From assembly GCA_963674825.1 (NCBI GenBank), contig OY771587.1, positions 3,543,812 to 3,607,811 on the forward strand: a stretch of 64,000 bases of DNA, in the 5' to 3' direction. The position numbers and the translations under genes are program-made. This document shows, piece after piece, positions 54,881-63,145 of the stretch. Position 1 is the stretch's first letter, and the number at the start of each line of letters is the position of its first letter. This DNA is from Candidatus Cloacimonadales bacterium (GTDB taxonomy: Bacteria; Cloacimonadota; Cloacimonadia; Cloacimonadales; JAIOQZ01). The notes beneath the pieces are model-generated. The model was not told the origin of the DNA. It made no database searches and saw nothing but the letters and a program-made list of their open reading frames with translations.

Positions 54881-54957
54881 GCCCCCGTAGCTCAGGTGGA
54901 TAGAGCAGTTCCCTCCTAAGGAAAAGGTCGCACGTTCGAGTCGTGCCGGGGGCGCCA
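54881..54957 (+). tRNA. tRNA-Arg (anticodon CCT), CCA encoded
   Basis: Hand-folded cloverleaf. Acceptor GCCCCCG/CGGGGGC, D-stem GCTC/GAGC, anticodon loop CTCCTAA, T-arm GCACG-TTCGAGT-CGTGC, discriminator G, CCA. Confidence 0.9.
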
Positions 54958-55021
54958 CTTAAAATGCTGATTTTTCCCTTATATACAATAACTTACGCAC
55001 CAACGCACATTCCATGCTTTT

Positions 55022-55146
55022 TATAAAGTGTCAGGCAAATTTCCAAAAAGTTGCAAGTAGTTTTCCAAATTGAAGAAAGGCAACCCGTCGAAATGAATTG
55101 CCTTATTATCGTAGTGTATTGTTTATCAGTTAGTTAGCGCTGTGTT
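55022..55146 (+). repeat. Island repeat unit A (TATAAAGTGTCAGGCAAAT box, GTTGCAAGTAGTTTTCCAAAT box, hairpin, TTTATCAGTTAGTTAG box)
   Basis: 55050-55146 matches 55430-55526 at roughly 85% by eye over 97 nt. Confidence 0.85.
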
Positions 55147-55288
55147 AGCAAAATCCATTATATCATTGACTGATTGCTATCCTCTCTGGGTATTATTGGG
55201 AGGAATAGAAAAAAGCCGCGAAGATCTTCAATGTCTGATTTCTCGAAACAAGGTGCGATATGAAAAAACCATGTGTTATCTATGCCAG

Positions 55289-55357
55289 TATAAAGTGTCA
55301 GGCGAATTATAAAGTGTCAGGCAAATTTCTAAATTGTTGCAAGTAGTTTTCCAAACG
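55289..55357 (+). repeat. Island repeat unit B (two tandem TATAAAGTGTCAGGC boxes plus a GTTGCAAGTAGTTTTCCAAA box; truncated)
   Basis: Direct matches to the 5' part of unit A. Confidence 0.85.
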
Positions 55358-55426
55358 GCATCAGCGCCAAGGCGGCGCAATAAGCAATTCAGGCTCGTAT
55401 CCAGCATCATATCAGTAAGATAATAC

Positions 55427-55549
55427 CGTGTTGCAAGAAGTTTTCCAAATTTAAGAAAGGCGACCCATCGAAATGAACCGCCTTTTGATTGTAATGTCTT
55501 GTTTATCAGTTAGTTAGTGCTGTGTTGCAAGTGGTTTTCCAAATTCAGG
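55427..55549 (+). repeat. Island repeat unit C plus the start of a fourth GTTGCAAG-N2-GTTTTCCAAAT box at 55524
   Basis: Matches unit A. The hairpin AAGGCGA...CCGCCTT carries one compensatory change relative to unit A (AAGGCAA...TTGCCTT). Confidence 0.85.
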
Positions 55550-55588
55550 TTTGATTTTGATGATCTCATTTCCATAACTCCATTATAT

Positions 55589-55804
55589 TCAGTCGGTTGG
55601 GTGTGGATTGCACGAGTTTTCTAAATCATCAGGGATGATGAGCGATTCGGCTTGGATCTTCGTCTGGATCTCTTCGAACGTATCGGCTTCAAAAGCCGGG
55701 TTATTGGTTGTTGTTATTGTTCCTGCAGGAAACTCATCACAACAACGAATTACCTGCGTTTTAGCATCCCATATGAGTCTGTATGTCTTTGTTAGTTGCA
55801 CCAC
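55589..55804 (-). CDS. Hypothetical 71-aa protein
   Basis: ORF starting 9 nt after the LRR ORF stop. No family recognised. Confidence 0.35.
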   Translation of the reverse strand: MVQLTKTYRLIWDAKTQVIRCCDEFPAGTITTTNNPAFEADTFEEIQTKIQAESLIIPDDLENSCNPHPTD

Positions 55805-55813
55805 AATAACCTC

Positions 55814-56431
55814 CTACGAATCCAACGTGATATCCCAACTGCGAGCGATCAGCGTATTATAAGCTGCCTGTCCGCTTGCATCGAGATCGGCATAAGTCGT
55901 GCCACATTCGCCATAGTTCAGAGATCCACTGCTGTTACCGATTGCCTCTACATCCACAAGCATCTGCGAGATCTCGTGCGTGCTCAAGCCCGTCAGGCCC
56001 CTGAAATTGGCTTCAAGCACAACCCACGAAAGCGTTGCCGCTGTATAGGTATCGACCTGCGAACCATCCAGACGCAACAGATCCAGCGCTCTCCCGGCAA
56101 GAACAGCGATGTCGCCGTCAATCAGCGTGTTTGAGCAGGAGAAACGAATCAGGTCAGTTAATCCTCCGAGGTCGCTCAATGAGCCCGTCAGAAGCGTATT
56201 TGTGCTTATATCGACGATCTGAAGATCGACCTTATCCGAGAGCACAAAGAGATCCCCGGTGAGGGCGGTCGGATTGTTCTGCTTGGCATAGAAGATCTTG
56301 AGTTGTGTAAGGGGAGCCAGGCCGACCGATAGGTCACCGAATGCCGCCGAAAGATGGATGTACAGATTGACGACTGATACCAGGTGCCGAAGCGTTTCGA
56401 CCCGGACACCCACCCAGCTTTGATTGTACAA
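55814..56431 (-). CDS. Leucine-rich-repeat (LRR) ORF with no credible start; possibly the C-terminal remnant of the degraded SIR2 gene upstream
   Basis: ~23-aa periodic L..L..L.L...N.L.G pattern (LTQLKIFYAKQNNPTALTGD / LQIVDISTNTLLTGS / LTDLIRFSCSNTLIDGD). The frame is open upstream to 56506 with no ATG. Only a TTG with no RBS is available. Confidence 0.4.
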   Translation of the reverse strand: MYNQSWVGVRVETLRHLVSVVNLYIHLSAAFGDLSVGLAPLTQLKIFYAKQNNPTALTGDLFVLSDKVDLQIVDISTNTLLTGSLSDLGGLTDLIRFSCSNTLIDGDIAVLAGRALDLLRLDGSQVDTYTAATLSWVVLEANFRGLTGLSTHEISQMLVDVEAIGNSSGSLNYGECGTTYADLDASGQAAYNTLIARSWDITLDS

Positions 56432-56451
56432 GTAGAAGCGCTCGATCTGGT

Positions 56452-56763
56452 TCAGAGCTCTTGTAATCCTGATATATTTATCTCGAACAGAGCAAACAGA
56501 CAGCGTTCATAGTATATCCGAGCCTGATGTAATGGCAGCAATTTACTCCATCCCTGAATAAAACCTTTGTTCACAACATCCCATTCTTTGTGCAATCCAT
56601 CTTCTCTATAGAAGCGTAAAAGATGAAGTCCAAGCTCAATACTCATTTGTCGCACTTCTTTGCTAACTCTTGCATCGGAGATATACATCCACTTGTATTT
56701 TTTCCATGTACTTGCGAAAAAATCTATCTGTTCATTGTAGATTGGGCAAAGGCTCTTATCCAT
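56452..56763 (-). CDS. 103-aa ORF in the same frame as the SIR2 ORF; probably part of the same degraded gene
   Basis: The distance from 57759 to 56763 is 996 nt (332 codons). Only TGA (56857-56859) and TAA (56773-56775) interrupt the frame. GGAGG abuts the ATG with no spacer. Confidence 0.35.
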   Translation of the reverse strand: MDKSLCPIYNEQIDFFASTWKKYKWMYISDARVSKEVRQMSIELGLHLLRFYREDGLHKEWDVVNKGFIQGWSKLLPLHQARIYYERCLFALFEINISGLQEL

Positions 56764-56856
56764 CCTCCATAATTATTCAAATGCCCAGTTTAAATCGATT
56801 CTACTGCTATTGTCAGCAATATTCCCATGAAACTGACACCATTCTTCTGTGAACAT

Positions 56857-57895
56857 TCAGATCTTTTTCCGCACTTCTTCAGGGGCGATAACCCATCCTG
56901 GATATGATTCGCGTTGAACTTTCCAAGCTTTCAGAGTGGTTTCAATTTGCTTTTCCTTGTCAGCATCTTTACCATGCTTTGGAGATAAGGGAGAAGAAGT
57001 CGTTGGCCAGTTAAGAGCTGCCTGAGAGTTATCTTTGGACTTCAGATATTCTAAAAACCTCATCAATCCCTTATAATGTTCATCCTCTCGAATATCGTTG
57101 CAATCAGCCATGTTGATTACGACAATATTCCGTGCCTCAAGAAGCTTTTGTTGAGCTATGGACAAATTAATAACACCAACCAGGAAGATCTTGGGGGAAT
57201 AATCTCTACCTAAATTGTCTCGTATCCAGCCAATCCAACTAAGAAAATTGGGATCATCCCCAGAGAAACCAATAAGACACAACGTATTTTCCAGCAAAGA
57301 CTGTTGAACCATATTGACGAACGGGGCATTCTCTTTGGGGTATATCCGGTAGTCTTCTTCCGTGATCACAAAGGGTCTGATTGACGGAAAACTACCATGT
57401 AATTTCACGATACGAGGTTGCGAGGAATGTGTAATATCCTCCTTTGTTTTCACGATATCGTATCTGCGATCAAATACCTTCGCTGTTGCTCTTTCAAGCA
57501 AAGTGTCATAATTCGTAGTAAACACATCAGACCAGGGTAAATTCAATAGCTCCGTATGCAATTCAGATGGCTCGTATTCTTTATCTGAAATCGCATCCTG
57601 TAGTAATTGATCGAGCGTTGGCCTCCCAAATGCAGCTTGAACTTCCTCAGCTAATTTCAGCACATTCAGATACTTGACTTGCTTCCCTGGATGATTCCTA
57701 TAGACCTTCTCGTAAAATATATCCCCCAATTCTGCCCAATCGGGAAAGTTATTGCACATCTCGCTATTGGGTTGTCCGTTTTTTACTAAAGCCAGATCCT
57801 ACCATTACAGCTGCATGCTCTGACCAAAGTCTTTCAGCAATCTCATCGAGATAAGGGCGTATATTATCGGCTACTTGTACATTTTGCTCATCCAT
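56857..57895 (-). pseudogene. SIR2-family (SIR2_2-type) NAD-dependent domain gene disrupted by a frameshift in an A6 homopolymer
   Basis: From ATG 57895 (RBS GGAG): MDEQNVQVADNIRPYLDEIAERLWSEHAAVMVGSGFSKK, then the frame is lost at the T6 run 57779-57784. One base fewer gives SKNGQPNSEMCNNFPDWAELG and joins the 300-aa ORF with TTNYDTLLE, KLHGS and GFSGDDPNF. Confidence 0.75.
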
Positions 57896-57912
57896 GAAGG
57901 GACTCCAGGAAG

Positions 57913-58311
57913 TTAGTTATTTAGGTTTAGAACATTAACGACATTATTGGAGAGATGATGAGATATCGAGCAATAATTACTGAGCAGCTTACGAAGTACT
58001 TCCAGCCTATCCCGCATCAACCCAAGCCAAATGCTGTGCTCTACCCCGTCATCGTAGTGGTCGAAGGCATTGCCGGTATTGTAGGGCGGATCGATGTAGA
58101 TGCACTTCACCTGCCCGGCGTATTCCTCTTCGAGAGCCTTGAGCGCGAGAAGGTTGTCCCCGTGGATGAGGATGTTGTCGAAGATGTCGTCCTGGGTCAC
58201 GTGGTGCGGTGCGTGGTAACTGTATTGCGGGTTTTCGAGAAGGATGCGCGGCTCCAGCCGTGGCTTGTTCTCCTTCCCGATCCATGTCAGTTCGAGCTTT
58301 TGGTTGGGCAT
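57913..58311 (-). pseudogene. 5' fragment of an N6-adenine DNA methyltransferase (Type III Mod-like / DPPY class)
   Basis: MPNQKLELTWIGKENKPRLEPRILLE...NLLALKAL...VKCIYIDPPYNTGNAFDHYDDGVEHSIWLGLMRDRLEVLRKLL, then unrelated residues and a stop. Only ~115 aa of an expected 500+ aa remain. Confidence 0.7.
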
Positions 58312-58352
58312 TGGGATTCGTCCTTATAGATATTTTCTTATTCAAATAATTG

Positions 58353-60053
58353 TTAGCTTCTGATTCTTGTCAATGCAACACTGTATCCCATCGAGCGAAT
58401 TGCTTGTACCCTGCCAATTAGATCAATTTTCGCAAACAACGTCAATGTACCTGAGAAATTCTTCAATGTTGTGTCGGCATTTGCAGGTATAGAATGTTTT
58501 TCATCGTAAATAGCAAATACAATGCATATCTCTTCCCTCATTGCGGATTTAAGATCTTTCAGTTGGTGCTTATCTTTCGCTGACAAATCTGCTTTTCCAT
58601 CCAAATCCGAATTATGAACCTTATCTCTAAATTCACTGTGGTGATGATATTCTTGAATCGATAGTAAACCTTGAGAAAAGAGTTCTCTGAGTGACGCTCC
58701 TGAATCATGTTTTATATGAATCAAAAGCTGTTTGTTTACTTTTTCTCCGAGTAAATCACAGAATTCGATTGTATCAAAACCACCCACAGAGCGGACAAAA
58801 TGCTTATGTAAAATCGTAAATTTCGTTGCGCAACTGCTGATGTAGTCGTCTTCCGTCTTGCATGCAGTCGTCCATGATGGCATCCCGATTTCTGTCGGAC
58901 TATAGCACTTAATGCCGTTGATCTCTTTATCTATCAATTGGATGAATGCCCTATTTGCTTGATACCATCGATTGCCAATTACAAAATACGTTTCATTTTG
59001 ATATGTGACATCCCCGCAAATGTACTCCGAAAGGAGTTTTCTTGGTGTTGAGGGTCGATCATCGGAATACTTACAAACAACCTGTATTTCGCCTAACTTA
59101 GCGTTTTGGTTCAGCGAAAGGTAATCCGATACTTTGGTCATTACCTCATCTGGATCGGAAGCCGATTCCTTCCATGGACCGTCATTGATTCTAAACTCTT
59201 CGACCTGATCAGATAGAAATCCTGTTTCCATATCATCCAGATACAATTCCCCAAGCCTGCTACCACTTTTCACCATGTTGTGTAATGCCTGAACAAGGCT
59301 ATTCACCAATCTCATGCGTGTTTTAGGGTCTATGAAATCAAGTTCGGGCAAGTCGTCCGACGTTTTGCCAGTATTCCAGATATTATCAATATCGTAGATA
59401 AATTGATGCACCTCGTCAAGGCTCTTCTTGCCCGTAATTTGCAATGAATCACCAGCAATGATACTCCTCCCTATTTCGATATCTTTTCCCTTGTATTTAT
59501 GCTTGATTGTTTTTTCGCTATTTGCCGGTATTGCTCGAATATGCGTGATAATTCTATGCAAGTTGTCTATATCACCTTTCGGCCTGTAGTTTCCCTTGAA
59601 AATCCGGTCGATGCTGTTCAATATTCCATGCGTCTCTTTCTGGTTTAATCCGCGTAAGTGCAAGCTACCTAATATCTTCTTTGCTAATGTGATGCCAAAT
59701 CTTGGTTCATGGTACTTCTGCGCAGTTATAGCGTGGAATCCTGTTCCCCCTGTACAGGCATAGATATTGTTCCCAACCTTAATCAAATAAACGAATCCTG
59801 AAGATTTTACTTGTGGAGGGATTCCACCGAACTCTGACAGATCCACACCCTTTCCTTTAAACAAAGTGTACCAGGGAGCGTCATTATCTTTCTGTGTTTT
59901 GAAATACAGCTCAGAGTAGAACTCAGTATTATCGAAGTGAGCGACCTGCACAAAGCCAGGAAAAGATATCGTCTGAGAGTCAACATCTTGATTTAGTTTA
60001 TAAAGCGTGATTTTCTTAGCAATGTTTTCAGATTTGTTTTTGTTCTCTGTCAT
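58353..60053 (-). CDS. 566-aa protein of unrecognised family; C-terminal PD-(D/E)xK-like motif; partner of the SNF2 helicase
   Basis: ATG at 60053 lies 6 nt after AGGAGG (60060-60065) and 27 nt downstream of the helicase stop. Motif FDTIEFCDLLGEKVNKQLLIHIKHDSGASLRELFSQG is encoded at 58668-58778. Confidence 0.7.
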   Translation of the reverse strand: MTENKNKSENIAKKITLYKLNQDVDSQTISFPGFVQVAHFDNTEFYSELYFKTQKDNDAPWYTLFKGKGVDLSEFGGIPPQVKSSGFVYLIKVGNNIYACTGGTGFHAITAQKYHEPRFGITLAKKILGSLHLRGLNQKETHGILNSIDRIFKGNYRPKGDIDNLHRIITHIRAIPANSEKTIKHKYKGKDIEIGRSIIAGDSLQITGKKSLDEVHQFIYDIDNIWNTGKTSDDLPELDFIDPKTRMRLVNSLVQALHNMVKSGSRLGELYLDDMETGFLSDQVEEFRINDGPWKESASDPDEVMTKVSDYLSLNQNAKLGEIQVVCKYSDDRPSTPRKLLSEYICGDVTYQNETYFVIGNRWYQANRAFIQLIDKEINGIKCYSPTEIGMPSWTTACKTEDDYISSCATKFTILHKHFVRSVGGFDTIEFCDLLGEKVNKQLLIHIKHDSGASLRELFSQGLLSIQEYHHHSEFRDKVHNSDLDGKADLSAKDKHQLKDLKSAMREEICIVFAIYDEKHSIPANADTTLKNFSGTLTLFAKIDLIGRVQAIRSMGYSVALTRIRS

Positions 60054-60080
60054 TCTAGTCCTCCTGGGCATGGATGGTTT

Positions 60081-62936
60081 CTATTTTATATCCCACCTTA
60101 CACTGAACAGCACCTCTTTCGAGGTCTGCTGAACCAGTTTATTCTCGATTTCTTTGATGAAATTGTCGCGTTTCCGATCGATATCATCCTGTGCATCAAA
60201 CAGCGACCTTCTCTTCTGGCTTCTTTGGGTTTCGAGAGCCCGGAGCTTTCGCTGCCCTTCGAGCTTTTCTTCAAGGGTTGGCGAAAGGGTCGTTGCACGG
60301 CGCACTTCTCTGATTTCCCTGTCGATATCCTTGATATCCCTTTCGAGCTCGGATTTCAGGTCTTCCGCCCATTCGTCCAGCTTCATTGCCTCGGTATCGT
60401 AGAACTGGGTATTCCTTTTCTCAACCTCTTTCTGTATAGCTTCATACCGTCCCGTGAGGCGTTCGTGGCAGAACTCATCAAAGAGGATTTCGGTCAAATC
60501 CTGCACCATTGTGGCGGGGACGTCGAACATTCTTCGGGCAATTTCCGGATCAATGATTTCTCCGGCATCCGTGCAGCAATCGAGAACGATGTATTCTTCT
60601 GTCACATTCATAGATTCGATTGTGAATAGCACTGCTCGCAGTACACCTGACCACCCGATGTAAGGTTCGAGAGACGTGATTTTACCCTCATACTCGCTGA
60701 GGTGGAAGGAAATGGACGCTGGTTGTAATTCGCGCCTTGTTGCCCTTTTCAGAAGGTATTGCGCCATCGGATGTGAGGGTCTGTATAGCATCGCATGACC
60801 GGATCTCCGCGGTAATTCGTACAAACCCAAGTCGAATTGTTTGCCGTCCGGATTTGAAAGCAATGTGAAGGATGACTCCGAGTTGAATTGCGCATGATCG
60901 CCCAATTCGATTTTCGTGAACCGTATCAGAAGCTTTTCGAACTTCGACAGGCATTCATTGGATCTTTTATCCCGGACTCGTAGCTTCTCCCTGACTTCAT
61001 CGTCGAAGTTTTCCATCAACTTCTGACTCGTCTGCGTCATTTCATCATCGATTTCCTGGGACATCTCTTCACGGAGCTTAGCAAACGCTTGCTCGATCTC
61101 TTCCTCCGTTCTGCATTTCTGATAGATATCCACAATCCGTTTCTCGAAATCTACACCCGACTCAATTGAGCCAAGAACCTCGTCGCTCGATCCGAATACA
61201 CCTTCGAACAGCTTGAATTTCTCGGAGAGCAGTTCGAATACACGCTTATCAGCGGCGTTCTTGGTATTCAAAAAATTGACCACGACAACATCATGCTTCT
61301 GACCATAGCGATGGCAGCGACCGATCCTCTGTTCTACGCGCTGAGGATTCCAAGGCAGATCATAATTCACCACCAATGAGCAAAACTGCAAGTTGATACC
61401 CTCTGCACCGGCTTCGGTTGCAATCATGATTTTCCCTTCATCACGAAAATAATCTACGATTGCTGAGCGTTTGTCCGCTGTTCGACTCCCCGTAACTCGA
61501 TCAGTACCTTTGTTTTTCTCTTTCCAATCCTGATAGATTGTCTTCGATCGTTCATCGTTGTTGGACCCGTTGAATAGAACGATTCCTTCAGAAAACGGGC
61601 TATTGGAAAGCAAATCGACCAAATAATTCTGCGTTCTTTTCGATTCGGTAAAGATGATTGCCTTCTGAGGTGCTCCAAATTCTTCAGCATACTCAAACGC
61701 CCGTTGCAATACTTGAAGTAGGGATTGACCTTTTTCATTGATTTTGATCGATTCTGCCAAGTCACGGTATTCTCCTAGATCATCAATCTCCTTCTTGAGT
61801 GCAATGATATCGGAATCCGTTAGAACTTCATCCTGGGAATCCTCTTCCCATTCATCAGACTCTTCTGTGTATGATTCGAAATCTTCGGACAATTCCTGAG
61901 CAATGATGTCCTGTGCTTCTTCGTGCCGATTCAACTTAGATAGAAGACGCTTTCTCATCGTATCCAGTGCACCGGCAATCGCGTAGGATGAAGAAGCTAG
62001 TTGCTTCCTTAAAACCAGGATGATAAGTGTTCGTTGGCTGTTTGGTAAAGCCTGAAGGTTTTCTCGTCGTAGATACTCAGAAACGAGATCATACAGCCTC
62101 ATCTCTGTTTCGCTTGGTGTGAATTCTTGAAGCATGGGGTGCCGTTTGGTGTATTTGATATAAGGCTCCACCTGCCTGCGAAGTGTGCGATGGCAGAATG
62201 GCTTGATTCGCAAACGCAGATGTTCGAATACTCCTTTGTCTCTTACCTTGGCATACCTGTCACGGAAGCTTCTGACGTCTCCAAATGCCTGGTCATCCAG
62301 AATACTTATCAATCCGTACAGTTCAAGGAGTGAGTTTTGCAAAGGTGTTGCTGTTAATAGTAATTTCTGACTACTTCGCAGAGTGTTTTTCAGCACGTTT
62401 CCGATCACGTTTGATGGTTTGTAAACATTGCGAAGTCTGTGCGCTTCGTCAATTACAACGAGATCCCATGGTATGCTTCGAACATCTTCAGCCTTCGACT
62501 TCGCGAAATGATAAGAACAAATGATGATCTTATCACTGCTGAATGGATTGATATTGCGCTTCTTCAGTATCTGGTTGTAGGTTTTTGATTCTAAGATGGA
62601 AGAATCCAGGAAGAATTTATCCGCCAGCTCCTGGTACCACTGCTTCCTGAGATTTGCCGGTGTGATGATCAGGATTTTCCTCTTTCGCTCAGCCCATCGT
62701 TGAGAAATAACAAGCCCAGCCTCAATCGTTTTTCCCAAACCCACTTCATCGGCTAAGATTACACCTTTTGTGAGTGGAGAATGAAAAGGGAATAACGCGG
62801 CATCTATCTGGTGTGGATTCAGGTCGATCGTGGCATCAGCCAGAGTTCCTGTCATTTTCTCGAGACTATCAGATGCATATTGGCGCATCAACTCAGTAGC
62901 AAAAAGCTTGGAATGGTATTTCGTCTGTGCTTCCAT
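60081..62936 (-). CDS. SNF2-family (SF2) helicase/translocase with a ~330-aa C-terminal extension
   Basis: Motif I ILADEVGLGKT (GLGKT at 62727-62741), II VVIDEAHRLRN, III LLLTATPLQNSLLELYGL, V/VI NYDLPWNPQRVEQRIGRCHRYGQK. The last ~120 aa form a charged, coiled-coil-like stretch. Confidence 0.9.
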   Translation of the reverse strand: MEAQTKYHSKLFATELMRQYASDSLEKMTGTLADATIDLNPHQIDAALFPFHSPLTKGVILADEVGLGKTIEAGLVISQRWAERKRKILIITPANLRKQWYQELADKFFLDSSILESKTYNQILKKRNINPFSSDKIIICSYHFAKSKAEDVRSIPWDLVVIDEAHRLRNVYKPSNVIGNVLKNTLRSSQKLLLTATPLQNSLLELYGLISILDDQAFGDVRSFRDRYAKVRDKGVFEHLRLRIKPFCHRTLRRQVEPYIKYTKRHPMLQEFTPSETEMRLYDLVSEYLRRENLQALPNSQRTLIILVLRKQLASSSYAIAGALDTMRKRLLSKLNRHEEAQDIIAQELSEDFESYTEESDEWEEDSQDEVLTDSDIIALKKEIDDLGEYRDLAESIKINEKGQSLLQVLQRAFEYAEEFGAPQKAIIFTESKRTQNYLVDLLSNSPFSEGIVLFNGSNNDERSKTIYQDWKEKNKGTDRVTGSRTADKRSAIVDYFRDEGKIMIATEAGAEGINLQFCSLVVNYDLPWNPQRVEQRIGRCHRYGQKHDVVVVNFLNTKNAADKRVFELLSEKFKLFEGVFGSSDEVLGSIESGVDFEKRIVDIYQKCRTEEEIEQAFAKLREEMSQEIDDEMTQTSQKLMENFDDEVREKLRVRDKRSNECLSKFEKLLIRFTKIELGDHAQFNSESSFTLLSNPDGKQFDLGLYELPRRSGHAMLYRPSHPMAQYLLKRATRRELQPASISFHLSEYEGKITSLEPYIGWSGVLRAVLFTIESMNVTEEYIVLDCCTDAGEIIDPEIARRMFDVPATMVQDLTEILFDEFCHERLTGRYEAIQKEVEKRNTQFYDTEAMKLDEWAEDLKSELERDIKDIDREIREVRRATTLSPTLEEKLEGQRKLRALETQRSQKRRSLFDAQDDIDRKRDNFIKEIENKLVQQTSKEVLFSVRWDIK

Positions 62937-63145
62937 CCAATATCCTTATCGGTTAATCTGGATCGTTAATCAAGCAATTCGGACATAATCATTAGAGGCA
63001 AGCAATTGTTAACCAATAGGAATTTTTGGATTGTTCTTGTCAATCTTATATCTTTTTCTGAACTTGATCGCTGTATATAAATGAATAATGTGAAGTTGTT
63101 CAAAGTGCTTCTACACACCACTCTTCCCTACCTCACGAACCACCA

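What the first reader, a model, noticed from the sequence alone, without database searches (positions are those of the whole stretch)
55814..57895. SIR2-domain gene broken by one homopolymer frameshift and two in-frame stops, possibly once continuous with an LRR C-terminus
Seen: from ATG 57895 the frame encodes the SIR2 glycine motif (AAVMVGSGFSKK), then is lost at a T6/A6 run (57779-57784). Removing one base joins it to the 300-aa ORF carrying TTNYDTLLE, KLHGS and GFSGDDPNF. That ORF ends at TGA 56857-56859. The same frame continues for 27 codons (MFTEEWCQFHGNIADNSSRIDLNWAFE) to TAA 56773-56775, then runs into the 103-aa ORF 56452-56763. The start-to-start distance is 996 nt, exactly 332 codons. 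The LRR ORF (55814-56431) has no ATG or RBS, and its frame is open upstream to 56506, overlapping the end of the 103-aa ORF. That is consistent with one more frameshift. Established: SIR2 domains are NAD-depleting effectors in Thoeris, DSR1/DSR2, SIR2-HerA and pAgo systems, and LRRs are classic ligand-sensing modules in immune receptors. Inference: these are remnants of a single ~690-aa SIR2-sensor protein, possibly SIR2-LRR, an architecture I do not recognise from described defence systems. It is either being pseudogenised or switched off by homopolymer slippage. Sequencing error in the homopolymer is an alternative for the first lesion only.
Basis: partly seen in the sequence, partly recalled or inferred. 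Interest (0 to 1): 0.7.

Follow-up and report, generated by a model that had tools for sequence, protein, structure and literature searches.

The report
Decayed, truncated DSR2 sirtuin defence gene
The broken SIR2 gene is the front 37% of a known anti-phage sirtuin (DSR2 family, normally about 1,290 aa) that has been inactivated and cut short. The neighbouring "LRR" reading frame is a fragment of an unrelated gene, so this is ordinary gene decay in a defence island and not a new SIR2-LRR immune protein.

Summary
On the minus strand, one reading frame runs from ATG 57895 and is broken by an A6 run (57779-57784), a TGA (56857-56859) and a TAA (56773-56775).

A relative about 95% identical in DNA (Ca. 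Cloacimonadales MAG, locus L001) carries the same gene intact: A5, TGG (Trp) and CTA (Leu), in a single 1,293-aa ORF. That ORF matches the Dsr2 profiles end to end. Of 80 homologous loci, 61 encode one ORF of 1,183-1,314 codons.

The window keeps only codons 1-477. Similarity to the relative stops at 56463, and no DSR2 C-terminus lies anywhere in the window.

The "LRR" ORF is not part of this gene. It is the 3' 215 codons of a paralogue of a 299-aa orphan protein (P0122, PKD-like N-terminus plus weak LRR-like repeats), cut at the same junction.

The locus also lost 3,974 bp of an adjacent type III restriction-modification system, and one neighbouring gene has been swapped.

Two runs give assemblies with all three lesions, so sequencing error is unlikely.

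Verdict: a recently pseudogenised member of a known family in a remodelled defence island next to tRNA-Arg. The SIR2-LRR idea is refuted. Interest is low.

The parts
56463..57895 (-). DSR2-family pseudogene: codons 1-477 of an ancestral gene of about 1,293 codons. It covers the SIR2 NADase domain, the linker and the start of the helical middle region.
   Evidence: PADLOC Dsr2 PDLC02184: E 4e-164 on profile positions 44-342 and E 4e-19 on positions 375-479, out of 1222. blastn gives 95.1% identity to L001 9931-11432. tblastn gives 95-100% identity to residues 1-479 of the L001 DSR2.
57779..57784 (-). Lesion 1: an A6 homopolymer causing a +1 frameshift after codon 38 (GSGFSK). The orthologue has A5.
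   Evidence: direct comparison with L001; the organism B contig lacks one base at 57779, while the contigs of runs X1 and X2 both carry A6.
56857..56859 (-). Lesion 2: TGA nonsense at codon 346. The orthologue has TGG, and Trp is conserved in the family (LWxxTxxW).
   Evidence: (56857 T>C in organism B).
56773..56775 (-). Lesion 3: TAA nonsense at codon 374. The orthologue has CTA, and Leu is conserved in the family (FELxWRMEK).
56462..56463 (.). Truncation junction. DSR2 homology and similarity to the relative's locus end here, and GC-rich unrelated DNA begins. There may be a short microhomology (ATCAGGATTAC, reading I-x-I-T in the other frame).
   Evidence: (the organism B contig runs on unlike the window beyond 56463).
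55814..56462 (-). The "LRR" ORF. It is the 3' fragment (about 215 codons) of a paralogue of the orphan 299-aa protein P0122. The N-terminal ~85 residues, including a PKD-like motif, and the start codon are missing. It is not part of the SIR2 gene.
   Evidence: only two members in the protein database, this ORF and P0122 (58% identity, same 3.89-Mb contig); the alignment starts at about residue 80-86 of P0122. LRR_4 and PKD hits fall below their cut-offs. No hit in PADLOC or PHROGs.
55589..55804 (-). A 71-aa ORF directly downstream of the LRR fragment, with a GGAGG ribosome-binding site and a GTG start. It has no family match and probably travels with the LRR-like gene.
57896..57964 (-). The retained 69-bp upstream (intergenic) region of the DSR2 gene. 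It corresponds to L001 9931-10000.
57913..58311 (-). Stump of a type III methyltransferase (Mod). Codons 1-116 are homologous, followed by out-of-context read-through to a stop. The stump keeps DPPY but lacks the AdoMet-binding part.
   Evidence: PADLOC MTase_III: E 3.5e-61, profile positions 3-130 of 575. 94% identity to L001 5596-5956. tblastn covers Mod residues 1-116 only.
57964..57965 (.). Deletion junction. Relative to L001, 3,974 bp are missing (L001 5957-9930), which removes Mod residues 117-546 and the whole 894-aa Res gene. There is a short GATCT-type microhomology at the junction.
58353..60071 (-). DUF6119/TIGR04141 gene (572 aa). It occupies the slot where the relative has a 780-aa SMC/LmuB-like ATPase, so this is a cassette swap between conserved flanks.
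60081..62936 (-). Intact SNF2 helicase of 951 aa (DrmD-like), 95.5% identical in DNA to the relative. It anchors the synteny of the island.
54881..54957 (+). tRNA-Arg (CCT), at the edge of the island.

Best explanation
Window 56463-57895 (minus strand) is a dead copy of a DSR2-family defence-associated sirtuin.

In its intact form, as seen in a roughly 95%-identical relative, the gene encodes a single 1,293-aa protein. That protein has an N-terminal SIR2 NADase domain, a helical middle region and a long alpha-solenoid C-terminal region.

By analogy with the characterised Bacillus subtilis DSR2 (inferred, not shown here), such a protein forms a tetramer. Its C-terminal domain binds a phage structural protein, which switches on NAD+ hydrolysis by the SIR2 core and aborts the infection.

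The window copy has four inactivating defects:
1. A +1 frameshift in an A5->A6 run after codon 38, which separates the NAD-binding Gly motif (GSGFS) from the rest of the domain.
2. TGG->TGA at Trp346.
3. CTA/TTA->TAA at Leu374.
4. Loss of everything after codon 477, about 816 residues including the whole sensor region. An illegitimate deletion or recombination fused the stump to the 3' part of an unrelated PKD/LRR-like gene.

An invariant proline is also changed (P103S).

The same island lost 3,974 bp of the adjacent type III restriction-modification genes (most of Mod and all of Res), and one neighbouring gene was exchanged. The locus as a whole is therefore a defence island near tRNA-Arg undergoing turnover.

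The fragment most likely does nothing now. The decay is recent: dN/dS against the intact orthologue is 0.14, close to the 0.11 of the intact SNF2 neighbour.
For: **Shown**
- The frames and lesions are as described.
- The fragments match the PADLOC Dsr2 profile over positions 44-342 and 375-479 of 1222.
- The repaired reading aligns collinearly with long homologues. Stop 1 falls on a conserved Trp and stop 2 on a conserved Leu.
- Syntenic locus L001 (Ca. Cloacimonadales MAG) has an intact 1,293-aa ORF with A5, TGG and CTA. That ORF hits PADLOC Dsr2 at E=0 and 1301 bits. It also hits NCBIfam NF041819 Dsr2 over model positions 2-1215 of 1215 at 1351 bits.
- An independent contig of organism B in run X4 shows the same three intact states and diverges from the window at 56463.
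- 61 of 80 homologous loci carry one ORF of 1,183-1,314 codons.
- No DSR2 C-terminus, Res or ATPase sequence occurs anywhere in the 64-kb window.
- The breakpoints are mapped to the base.
- The LRR ORF is a fragment of a paralogue of P0122.
- A model of family member P0037 (pLDDT 79) has B. subtilis DSR2 as all 50 of its top PDB matches, with E about 1e-15.
- The contigs of runs X1 and X2 (31x and 38x) are identical to the window across all lesions.
- dN/dS is 0.137, against 0.106 for SNF2 and 0.104 for the Mod stump.

**From the literature**
- The DSR2 mechanism, tetramer and sensor C-terminal domain are described in bioRxiv 10.1101/2021.12.14.472415 and PMC10981675.
Against: - Only assembler contigs were available for runs X1 and X2, not raw reads. 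Minority alleles, such as A5 subpopulations, cannot be excluded.
- No RNA data were found, so residual expression of the 300-aa ORF is untested.
- The family resembles B. subtilis DSR2 in sequence only in the SIR2 domain. The fragment query gave E 7e-15. The full-length orthologue and the family profile did not recover it by sequence. The trigger and the details of the mechanism of this roughly 1,250-aa subfamily are therefore inferred.
- The NCBIfam score of the orthologue (1351 bits) is just under the curated cut-off of 1400.
- The rest of the 3.89-Mb genome could not be inspected for a second, intact copy or for the ancestral arrangement downstream of the gene.
Confidence: 0.9

Rival explanations
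1. Remnants of a single SIR2-middle-LRR protein of about 690 aa, a new defence architecture. One further frameshift would join the 103-aa ORF to the LRR ORF.
For: The LRR frame is open upstream to 56506 and overlaps the end of the 103-aa ORF. It has no ATG or ribosome-binding site of its own. It gives a weak LRR_4 hit at E 0.011.
Against: - The intact orthologue and 61 of 80 homologues continue with about 800 residues of helical sequence and no LRR.
- DNA similarity to the relative ends abruptly at 56463, with a jump in GC from 0.41 to 0.53.
- The LRR ORF aligns to residues ~80-299 of a separate 299-aa protein that has its own N-terminus.
- The upstream open stretch from 56463 to 56506 is DSR2 sequence read in another frame.
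Confidence: 0.01
2. The gene is intact in the organism, and the lesions are sequencing or assembly errors.
For: - Lesion 1 lies in a homopolymer.
- The source is probably a metagenome-derived genome.
- About a tenth of the homologous loci from MAGs also show frame breaks.
Against: - Contigs assembled separately from two runs, at 31x and 38x word depth, reproduce A6, TGA and TAA and both junctions exactly.
- Two of the lesions are substitutions.
- The C-terminal 816 codons are absent from the whole window.
- Both runs come from one sample, so they are independent of the assembler but not of the population.
Confidence: 0.03
3. The stump is still used. For example, the 300-aa ORF could be expressed as a stand-alone SIR2 NADase, or the A-run could act as a phase-variable switch.
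For: - The catalytic motifs TTNYD and KLHGS are intact.
- dN/dS is low, at 0.14.
- SIR2-only entries of about 300-345 aa exist in the protein database.
Against: - The 300-aa ORF lacks the N-terminal Gly-rich NAD-binding strand (GSGFS).
- It has no obvious ribosome-binding site.
- An invariant Pro is mutated (P103S).
- One short database relative was checked. L072 is the 37,550-bp contig to which P0098 (344 aa) appears to belong, judged by the matching contig length only. It proved to be a piece of a disrupted long gene.
- A slippage back to A5 would still meet two stops and no sensor domain.
- The low dN/dS is equally expected from recent inactivation.
- Tetramerisation and the signal from the C-terminal domain are required for DSR2 activity (PMC10981675).
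Confidence: 0.05

Closest known systems
Dsr2 family as defined by NCBIfam NF041819 ("anti-phage defense-associated sirtuin Dsr2", 1215 positions) and PADLOC PDLC02184 (1222 positions)
   Same: The window fragment matches the first ~480 positions of the profile. Its 96%-identical orthologue matches both profiles end to end. It is a single-gene system with an N-terminal SIR2_2 domain and a long helical C-terminus.
   Different: The window copy is a pseudogene. It has a frameshift and two nonsense codons, and it lacks profile positions ~480-1222. The orthologue scores 1351 bits, just below NCBIfam's 1400-bit equivalog cut-off.
Bacillus subtilis 29R DSR2 (1005 aa; PDB 8K98, 8WY8, 8WKX and others). 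It is activated by the SPR tail tube protein and inhibited by DSAD1 (Garb et al., bioRxiv 10.1101/2021.12.14.472415; PMC10981675).
   Same: The SIR2 domains are similar in sequence (E 7e-15). The fold is the same across SIR2 plus the helical regions: all 50 top Foldseek PDB matches of a family model are DSR2 chains.
   Different: - Overall identity in the structural alignments is only 12-15%.
- The family here is about 250-300 residues longer.
- The full-length or profile sequence searches did not recover B. subtilis DSR2.
- The trigger of this subfamily is unknown.
- The window copy lacks the sensor region altogether.
Thoeris ThsA and other SIR2 defence effectors (SIR2-HerA, SIR2/pAgo, DSR1, Avs5)
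   Same: They share the SIR2 NADase domain. PADLOC ThsA gives E 4e-25 over the SIR2 part only, and PDB ThsA gives E 1e-11.
   Different: There is no SLOG, HerA, pAgo or NOD partner domain or gene. The Dsr2 profile scores far better (546 bits against 87 bits).
Leucine-rich-repeat immune receptors (NLR/Avs-type sensors)
   Same: The only resemblance is a weak LRR-like periodicity in the neighbouring ORF (LRR_4, E 0.011).
   Different: That ORF is below the Pfam threshold. It is not contiguous with the SIR2 gene. It is a fragment of a small 299-aa PKD-plus-repeat orphan protein, with no NTPase or effector domain.

Membership tests
DSR2 (defence-associated sirtuin 2; NF041819 / PDLC02184) | N-terminal SIR2_2 domain with the catalytic Asn and His motifs | tested here: met
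   PF13289 at E 1e-23. TTNYD and KLHGS are present and sit in invariant columns of the family alignment. However, the frameshift separates the Gly motif from the rest of the domain, and the invariant P103 is changed to S.
DSR2 (defence-associated sirtuin 2; NF041819 / PDLC02184) | End-to-end match of one polypeptide to the Dsr2 profile (about 1,200 positions) | tested here: not met
   The window covers only profile positions 44-342 and 375-479 of 1222. No C-terminal part lies anywhere in the window. The orthologue L001 does meet this feature: PADLOC E=0 at 1301 bits, and NCBIfam model positions 2-1215 at 1351 bits against a cut-off of 1400.
DSR2 (defence-associated sirtuin 2; NF041819 / PDLC02184) | A single uninterrupted ORF | tested here: not met
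   The window copy has one frameshift, two in-frame stops and a truncation at codon 477. By contrast, 61 of 80 relatives have one ORF of 1,183-1,314 codons.
DSR2 (defence-associated sirtuin 2; NF041819 / PDLC02184) | The fold of B. subtilis DSR2 (SIR2, then helical middle domain, then alpha-solenoid C-terminal domain) | tested here: met
   This was tested on family member P0037 (48% identical to the fragment), not on the window stump. The AlphaFold model has pLDDT 79. All of its top 50 PDB matches are DSR2 chains, with E about 1e-15 and 830-960 aligned columns. The family C-terminus also hits Armadillo-repeat proteins.
DSR2 (defence-associated sirtuin 2; NF041819 / PDLC02184) | Phage-triggered NAD+ depletion and abortive infection | not testable with these tools
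   Known for B. subtilis DSR2 from the literature. No functional data exist for this subfamily or for this locus.
   The intact orthologue and the homologues have no LRR. The LRR ORF belongs to a separate 299-aa family. There is a sharp breakpoint at 56462/56463.
Leucine-rich repeat proteins (Pfam LRR clan) | A significant match to an LRR profile | tested here: not met
   LRR_4 gives 16.4 bits for the window ORF and 19.1 bits for P0122, against a cut-off of 27. The repeat-like periodicity is visible only by eye.
Type III restriction-modification (neighbouring genes) | A complete Mod gene with an AdoMet-binding motif, plus a Res gene | tested here: not met
   Only Mod residues 1-116 remain and Res is absent. 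The relative L001 has both genes intact.

The most novel reading that the evidence does not exclude
The least ordinary reading still open is that the SIR2-plus-linker stump is retained because it is useful. It might act as a constitutively weak NADase, or as a dominant-negative or decoy partner for another DSR2 copy elsewhere in the genome, or it might be toggled by the A-run. A separate possibility is that the PKD/LRR-like orphan family is a new host-specific surface or phage-related module whose recombination drives turnover at this tRNA-Arg island. That family has only two members among 5.8 billion protein clusters, both in this genome.
Probability: 0.04. Interest if true: 0.4.

Novelty: already known. 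Interest (0 to 1): 0.12.

Why it matters
It matters little beyond correct annotation.

- It removes a false lead: there is no SIR2-LRR defence architecture here.
- It gives a clean, base-resolved example of how a defence island decays. In one lineage, relative to a ~95%-identical sibling, a DSR2 gene picked up a frameshift, two nonsense mutations and a 3' truncation. A type III R-M system was excised by a 3,974-bp deletion, and a neighbouring cassette was swapped.
- Such strain pairs are useful for studying rates of gain and loss of defence systems in Cloacimonadota, but the phenomenon is well known.

Tried and rejected
- **SIR2-LRR continuity.** Rejected by the orthologue and the breakpoint mapping.
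- **Sequencing error.** Judged unlikely from the two runs' contigs. Raw reads were not available, because the runs are kept only as contigs.
- **RNA evidence.** No RNA run was found.
- **Context of the paralogue P0122.** No encoding contig is on record. There are no relatives in viral contigs. PHROGs gives only a weak hit to the PKD-like N-terminus.
- **DSR2 C-terminus moved elsewhere in the window.** Not found by tblastn or blastn.
- **Sequence-level link of the full family to B. subtilis DSR2.** The 480-aa fragment hit the SIR2 domain. The full-length orthologue and the 23-sequence profile did not list DSR2, which is probably an effect of HMMER's filters. The link was instead established by fold search.
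- **The ~300-aa SIR2-only database proteins as evidence for naturally separate small genes.** One candidate was checked: L072, the 37,550-bp contig to which P0098 appears to belong (judged by the matching contig length only). It is a disrupted long gene. The others, P0094, P0104, P0116 and P0118, were not examined in their genomic context.
- **Literature check that the DSR2 example of Gao et al. 2020 belongs to this ~1,200-aa subfamily.** Nothing was found in the held library, so this point is left as unverified recollection.
- **GC composition as a breakpoint marker.** The intact relative shows the same gene-by-gene mosaic. Composition alone is therefore not evidence of the junctions.
Full report
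**1. The observation**

The region was read on the minus strand.
- From ATG 57895 the frame encodes MDEQNVQVADNIRPYLDEIAERLWSEHAAVMVGSGFSKK and stops after 43 codons.
- The sequence AGTAAAAAACGG holds an A6 run at 57779-57784.
- Deleting one A gives ...GSGFSKNGQPNSEMCNNFPDWAELG..., which runs straight into the 300-aa ORF (56857-57759).
- That ORF ends at TGA 56857-56859. The same frame continues for 27 codons to TAA 56773-56775, then reads LWR followed by the 103-aa ORF (56452-56763).
- Pfam places SIR2_2 in the 300-aa ORF (E 1e-23).

**2. What the gene is**

- Against PADLOC, the 300-aa ORF matches the Dsr2 model PDLC02184 at E 4e-164 (profile positions 44-342 of 1222). The 103-aa ORF matches the same model at positions 375-479 (E 4e-19). 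The pieces are therefore collinear parts of the first ~40% of a DSR2-family protein.
- A search with the repaired 480-aa reading found more than 1,300 relatives.
- In an alignment with long relatives, the first stop sits on a conserved Trp (LWxxTxxW) and the second on a conserved Leu (FELxWRMEK). The relatives continue well beyond the window's last residues (...ISGLQEL).

**3. An intact sibling locus**

- A scan of species-representative genomes found locus L001 (Candidatus Cloacimonadales MAG, contig CAXXSY010000004.1) with 96% protein identity over residues 1-479.
- There the gene is one ORF of 1,293 codons. It has A5 instead of A6, TGG at codon 346 and CTA at codon 374.
- The L001 protein hits PADLOC Dsr2 at E=0 and 1301 bits. 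It also matches NCBIfam NF041819 ("anti-phage defense-associated sirtuin Dsr2") over model positions 2-1215 of 1215 at 1351 bits, against a curated cut-off of 1400.
- Independently, a 24-kb contig of "organism B" in public run X4 shows the same three differences. One base is left out at 57779, 56857 is T>C, and 56774-56775 is TA>AG. That contig stops resembling the window at 56463. Its difference counts equal those of L001, so it is most likely the same or a very close organism.
- Of the 80 homologous loci fetched, 61 carry a single ORF of 1,183-1,314 codons.
- About eight to ten others are themselves interrupted, with homology continuing in another frame. Broken copies of this family are therefore not rare in genome data.

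**4. Breakpoints**

blastn of the window against L001 gives three collinear blocks.

| Window | L001 | Identity | Content |
|---|---|---|---|
| 60087-63043 | 3031-72 | 95.5% | SNF2 helicase |
| 57965-58325 | 5956-5596 | 93.9% | 5' end of the type III Mod gene |
| 56463-57964 | 11432-9931 | 95.1% | 70 bp upstream plus codons 1-477 of DSR2 |

- Window positions 57965 and 57964 are adjacent. The window therefore lacks exactly L001 5957-9930, which is 3,974 bp covering Mod residues 117-546 and the whole 894-aa Res gene. A short GATCT-type microhomology lies at the junction.
- At 56463 the two sequences part: GGATTAC|AAGAGCTCTGAACC... in the window against GGATTAC|GGGAGTGTATTAGC... in L001.
- No DSR2 C-terminal, Res or ATPase coding sequence is found anywhere in the 64-kb window.
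- Between SNF2 and Mod, the window has a DUF6119/TIGR04141 gene where L001 has a 780-aa SMC/LmuB-like ATPase.

**5. The "LRR" ORF**

- The translation of 55817-56461 has only two matches among 5.8 billion protein clusters. One is itself. The other is P0122, a 299-aa protein from the same 3.89-Mb contig, at 58% identity and 99% coverage.
- P0122 is not encoded in the window. The alignment covers residues ~80-299 of P0122, so the window copy lacks the first ~80-85 residues. Those residues carry a PKD-like motif in P0122 (PKD E 0.004; LRR_4 E 0.0016; both below their cut-offs).
- The stretch that is open upstream as far as 56506 is DSR2 DNA read in another frame.
- The ORF is thus a 5'-truncated fragment of an unrelated small gene, abutted to the DSR2 stump. 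Both genes lie on the same strand. A single deletion running from DSR2 codon 477 to codon ~80 of a downstream PKD/LRR-like gene would give the present structure. This is an inference. A few bases of possible microhomology lie at the junction (I-x-I-T in both).
- The ORF has no PADLOC, PHROGs, NCBIfam or viral-contig relatives.

**6. Are the lesions real?**

- Contigs assembled separately from runs X1 and X2 (same sample, word depth 31 and 38) are identical to the window from 54931 to 63000, including all three lesions and both junctions.
- Two of the lesions are substitutions.
- Error is therefore unlikely. However, contigs hide minority variants and raw reads were not available. No RNA run was found.

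**7. Age of the decay**

| Comparison with L001 | dN/dS | dS |
|---|---|---|
| DSR2 stump (475 codons) | 0.137 | 0.144 |
| Intact SNF2 neighbour | 0.106 | 0.141 |
| Mod stump | 0.104 | not calculated here |

(All.)

- Most of the divergence therefore accumulated under purifying selection, and inactivation is recent relative to the split of the two lineages.
- One substitution hits a family-invariant proline (P103S).

**8. How it worked and what it does now**

- A model of family member P0037 (809 aa, pLDDT 79) has B. subtilis DSR2 cryo-EM chains as all 50 of its top PDB matches. E is about 1e-15, alignments span 830-960 columns, and SIR2-only chains give TM about 0.8.
- By sequence, only the SIR2 domain is recognisably similar (E 7e-15). 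The family C-terminus resembles Armadillo/alpha-solenoid repeats.
- For B. subtilis DSR2 the literature shows a tetramer. Its C-terminal domain binds the phage tail tube protein, which activates SIR2 NAD+ hydrolysis. Tetramerisation and relay of the signal from the C-terminal and middle domains are essential (bioRxiv 10.1101/2021.12.14.472415; PMC10981675).
- By inference, the intact ancestor of the window gene worked the same way, against an unknown trigger.
- The window copy cannot. Translation from the native start ends after 43 codons. The internal 300-aa ORF lacks the Gly-rich NAD-binding strand. The entire sensor region is gone.

**9. Comparison and verdict**

- This is a pseudogenised member of a known, named family (Dsr2). 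It sits in a defence island beside tRNA-Arg(CCT).
- Compared with a sibling genome, the island has also lost a type III R-M system and exchanged a cassette.
- The proposed SIR2-LRR architecture does not exist here.
- Novelty: already known. Interest: low (0.12).

Noticed in passing
window 57913-58325, junction 57964|57965: A clean 3,974-bp deletion relative to L001 removes Mod residues 117-546 and the whole Res gene of a type III R-M system. What remains is a 132-aa Mod stump fused to the intergenic DNA upstream of DSR2. There is a GATCT-type microhomology at the junction.
   Followed up: yes
window 58326-60086, against L001 3032-5595: A cassette swap between conserved flanks (SNF2 helicase and Mod). 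The window has a 572-aa DUF6119/TIGR04141 protein where the relative has a 780-aa SMC/LmuB-like ATPase. The function of DUF6119 is unknown and it has no PADLOC hit.
   Followed up: partly
window 60081-62936: The SNF2 helicase scores strongly on the DISARM DrmD models (PADLOC E 6e-215; NCBIfam NF038318 719 bits, below the cut-off of 950). However, no DrmA, DrmB or DrmC was seen next to it, either here or in L001. It may belong with the Mod/Res or DUF6119 genes rather than with DISARM.
   Followed up: partly
window 55021-55545: Short direct repeats lie just downstream of tRNA-Arg: GTTGCAAGTAGTTTTCCAAATT four times, TATAAAGTGTCAGGCAAATT three times, and a 97-nt unit twice at 88% identity. In organism B, a near-identical copy of 55022-55070 follows the 3' end of another tRNA. 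These may be leftover ends of serially integrated elements.
   Followed up: partly
window 55814-56462 and P0122 (elsewhere in the same genome): An orphan PKD-like plus LRR-like protein family with only two members in the 5.8-billion-cluster database, both from this genome. The window copy is followed by a 71-aa ORF (55589-55804) that also has no relatives.
   Followed up: partly
loci L005, L007, L014, L017, L060, L072: About a tenth of the DSR2-family loci fetched from other genomes are also interrupted by frameshifts, stops or a ~1.3-kb insertion (L060). These are either real decay or MAG assembly errors. The ~300-345-aa SIR2-only database entries may be such fragments. Only the L072 locus was checked, and its link to P0098 rests on contig length.
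   Followed up: partly
L001 13994-18672: Downstream of the intact DSR2, the relative carries a Rad52-family gene and a DRT8-type defence reverse transcriptase (PADLOC E 6e-123). None of this is present in the window.
   Followed up: partly
tool behaviour: The listed protein-database hits were all 824 aa or shorter, although the genomic loci show ORFs of 1,200-1,300 aa. In addition, phmmer found B. subtilis DSR2 with the 480-aa fragment but not with the full-length orthologue or the family profile. These are probably database or filter artefacts and are worth remembering when reading such tables.
   Followed up: no
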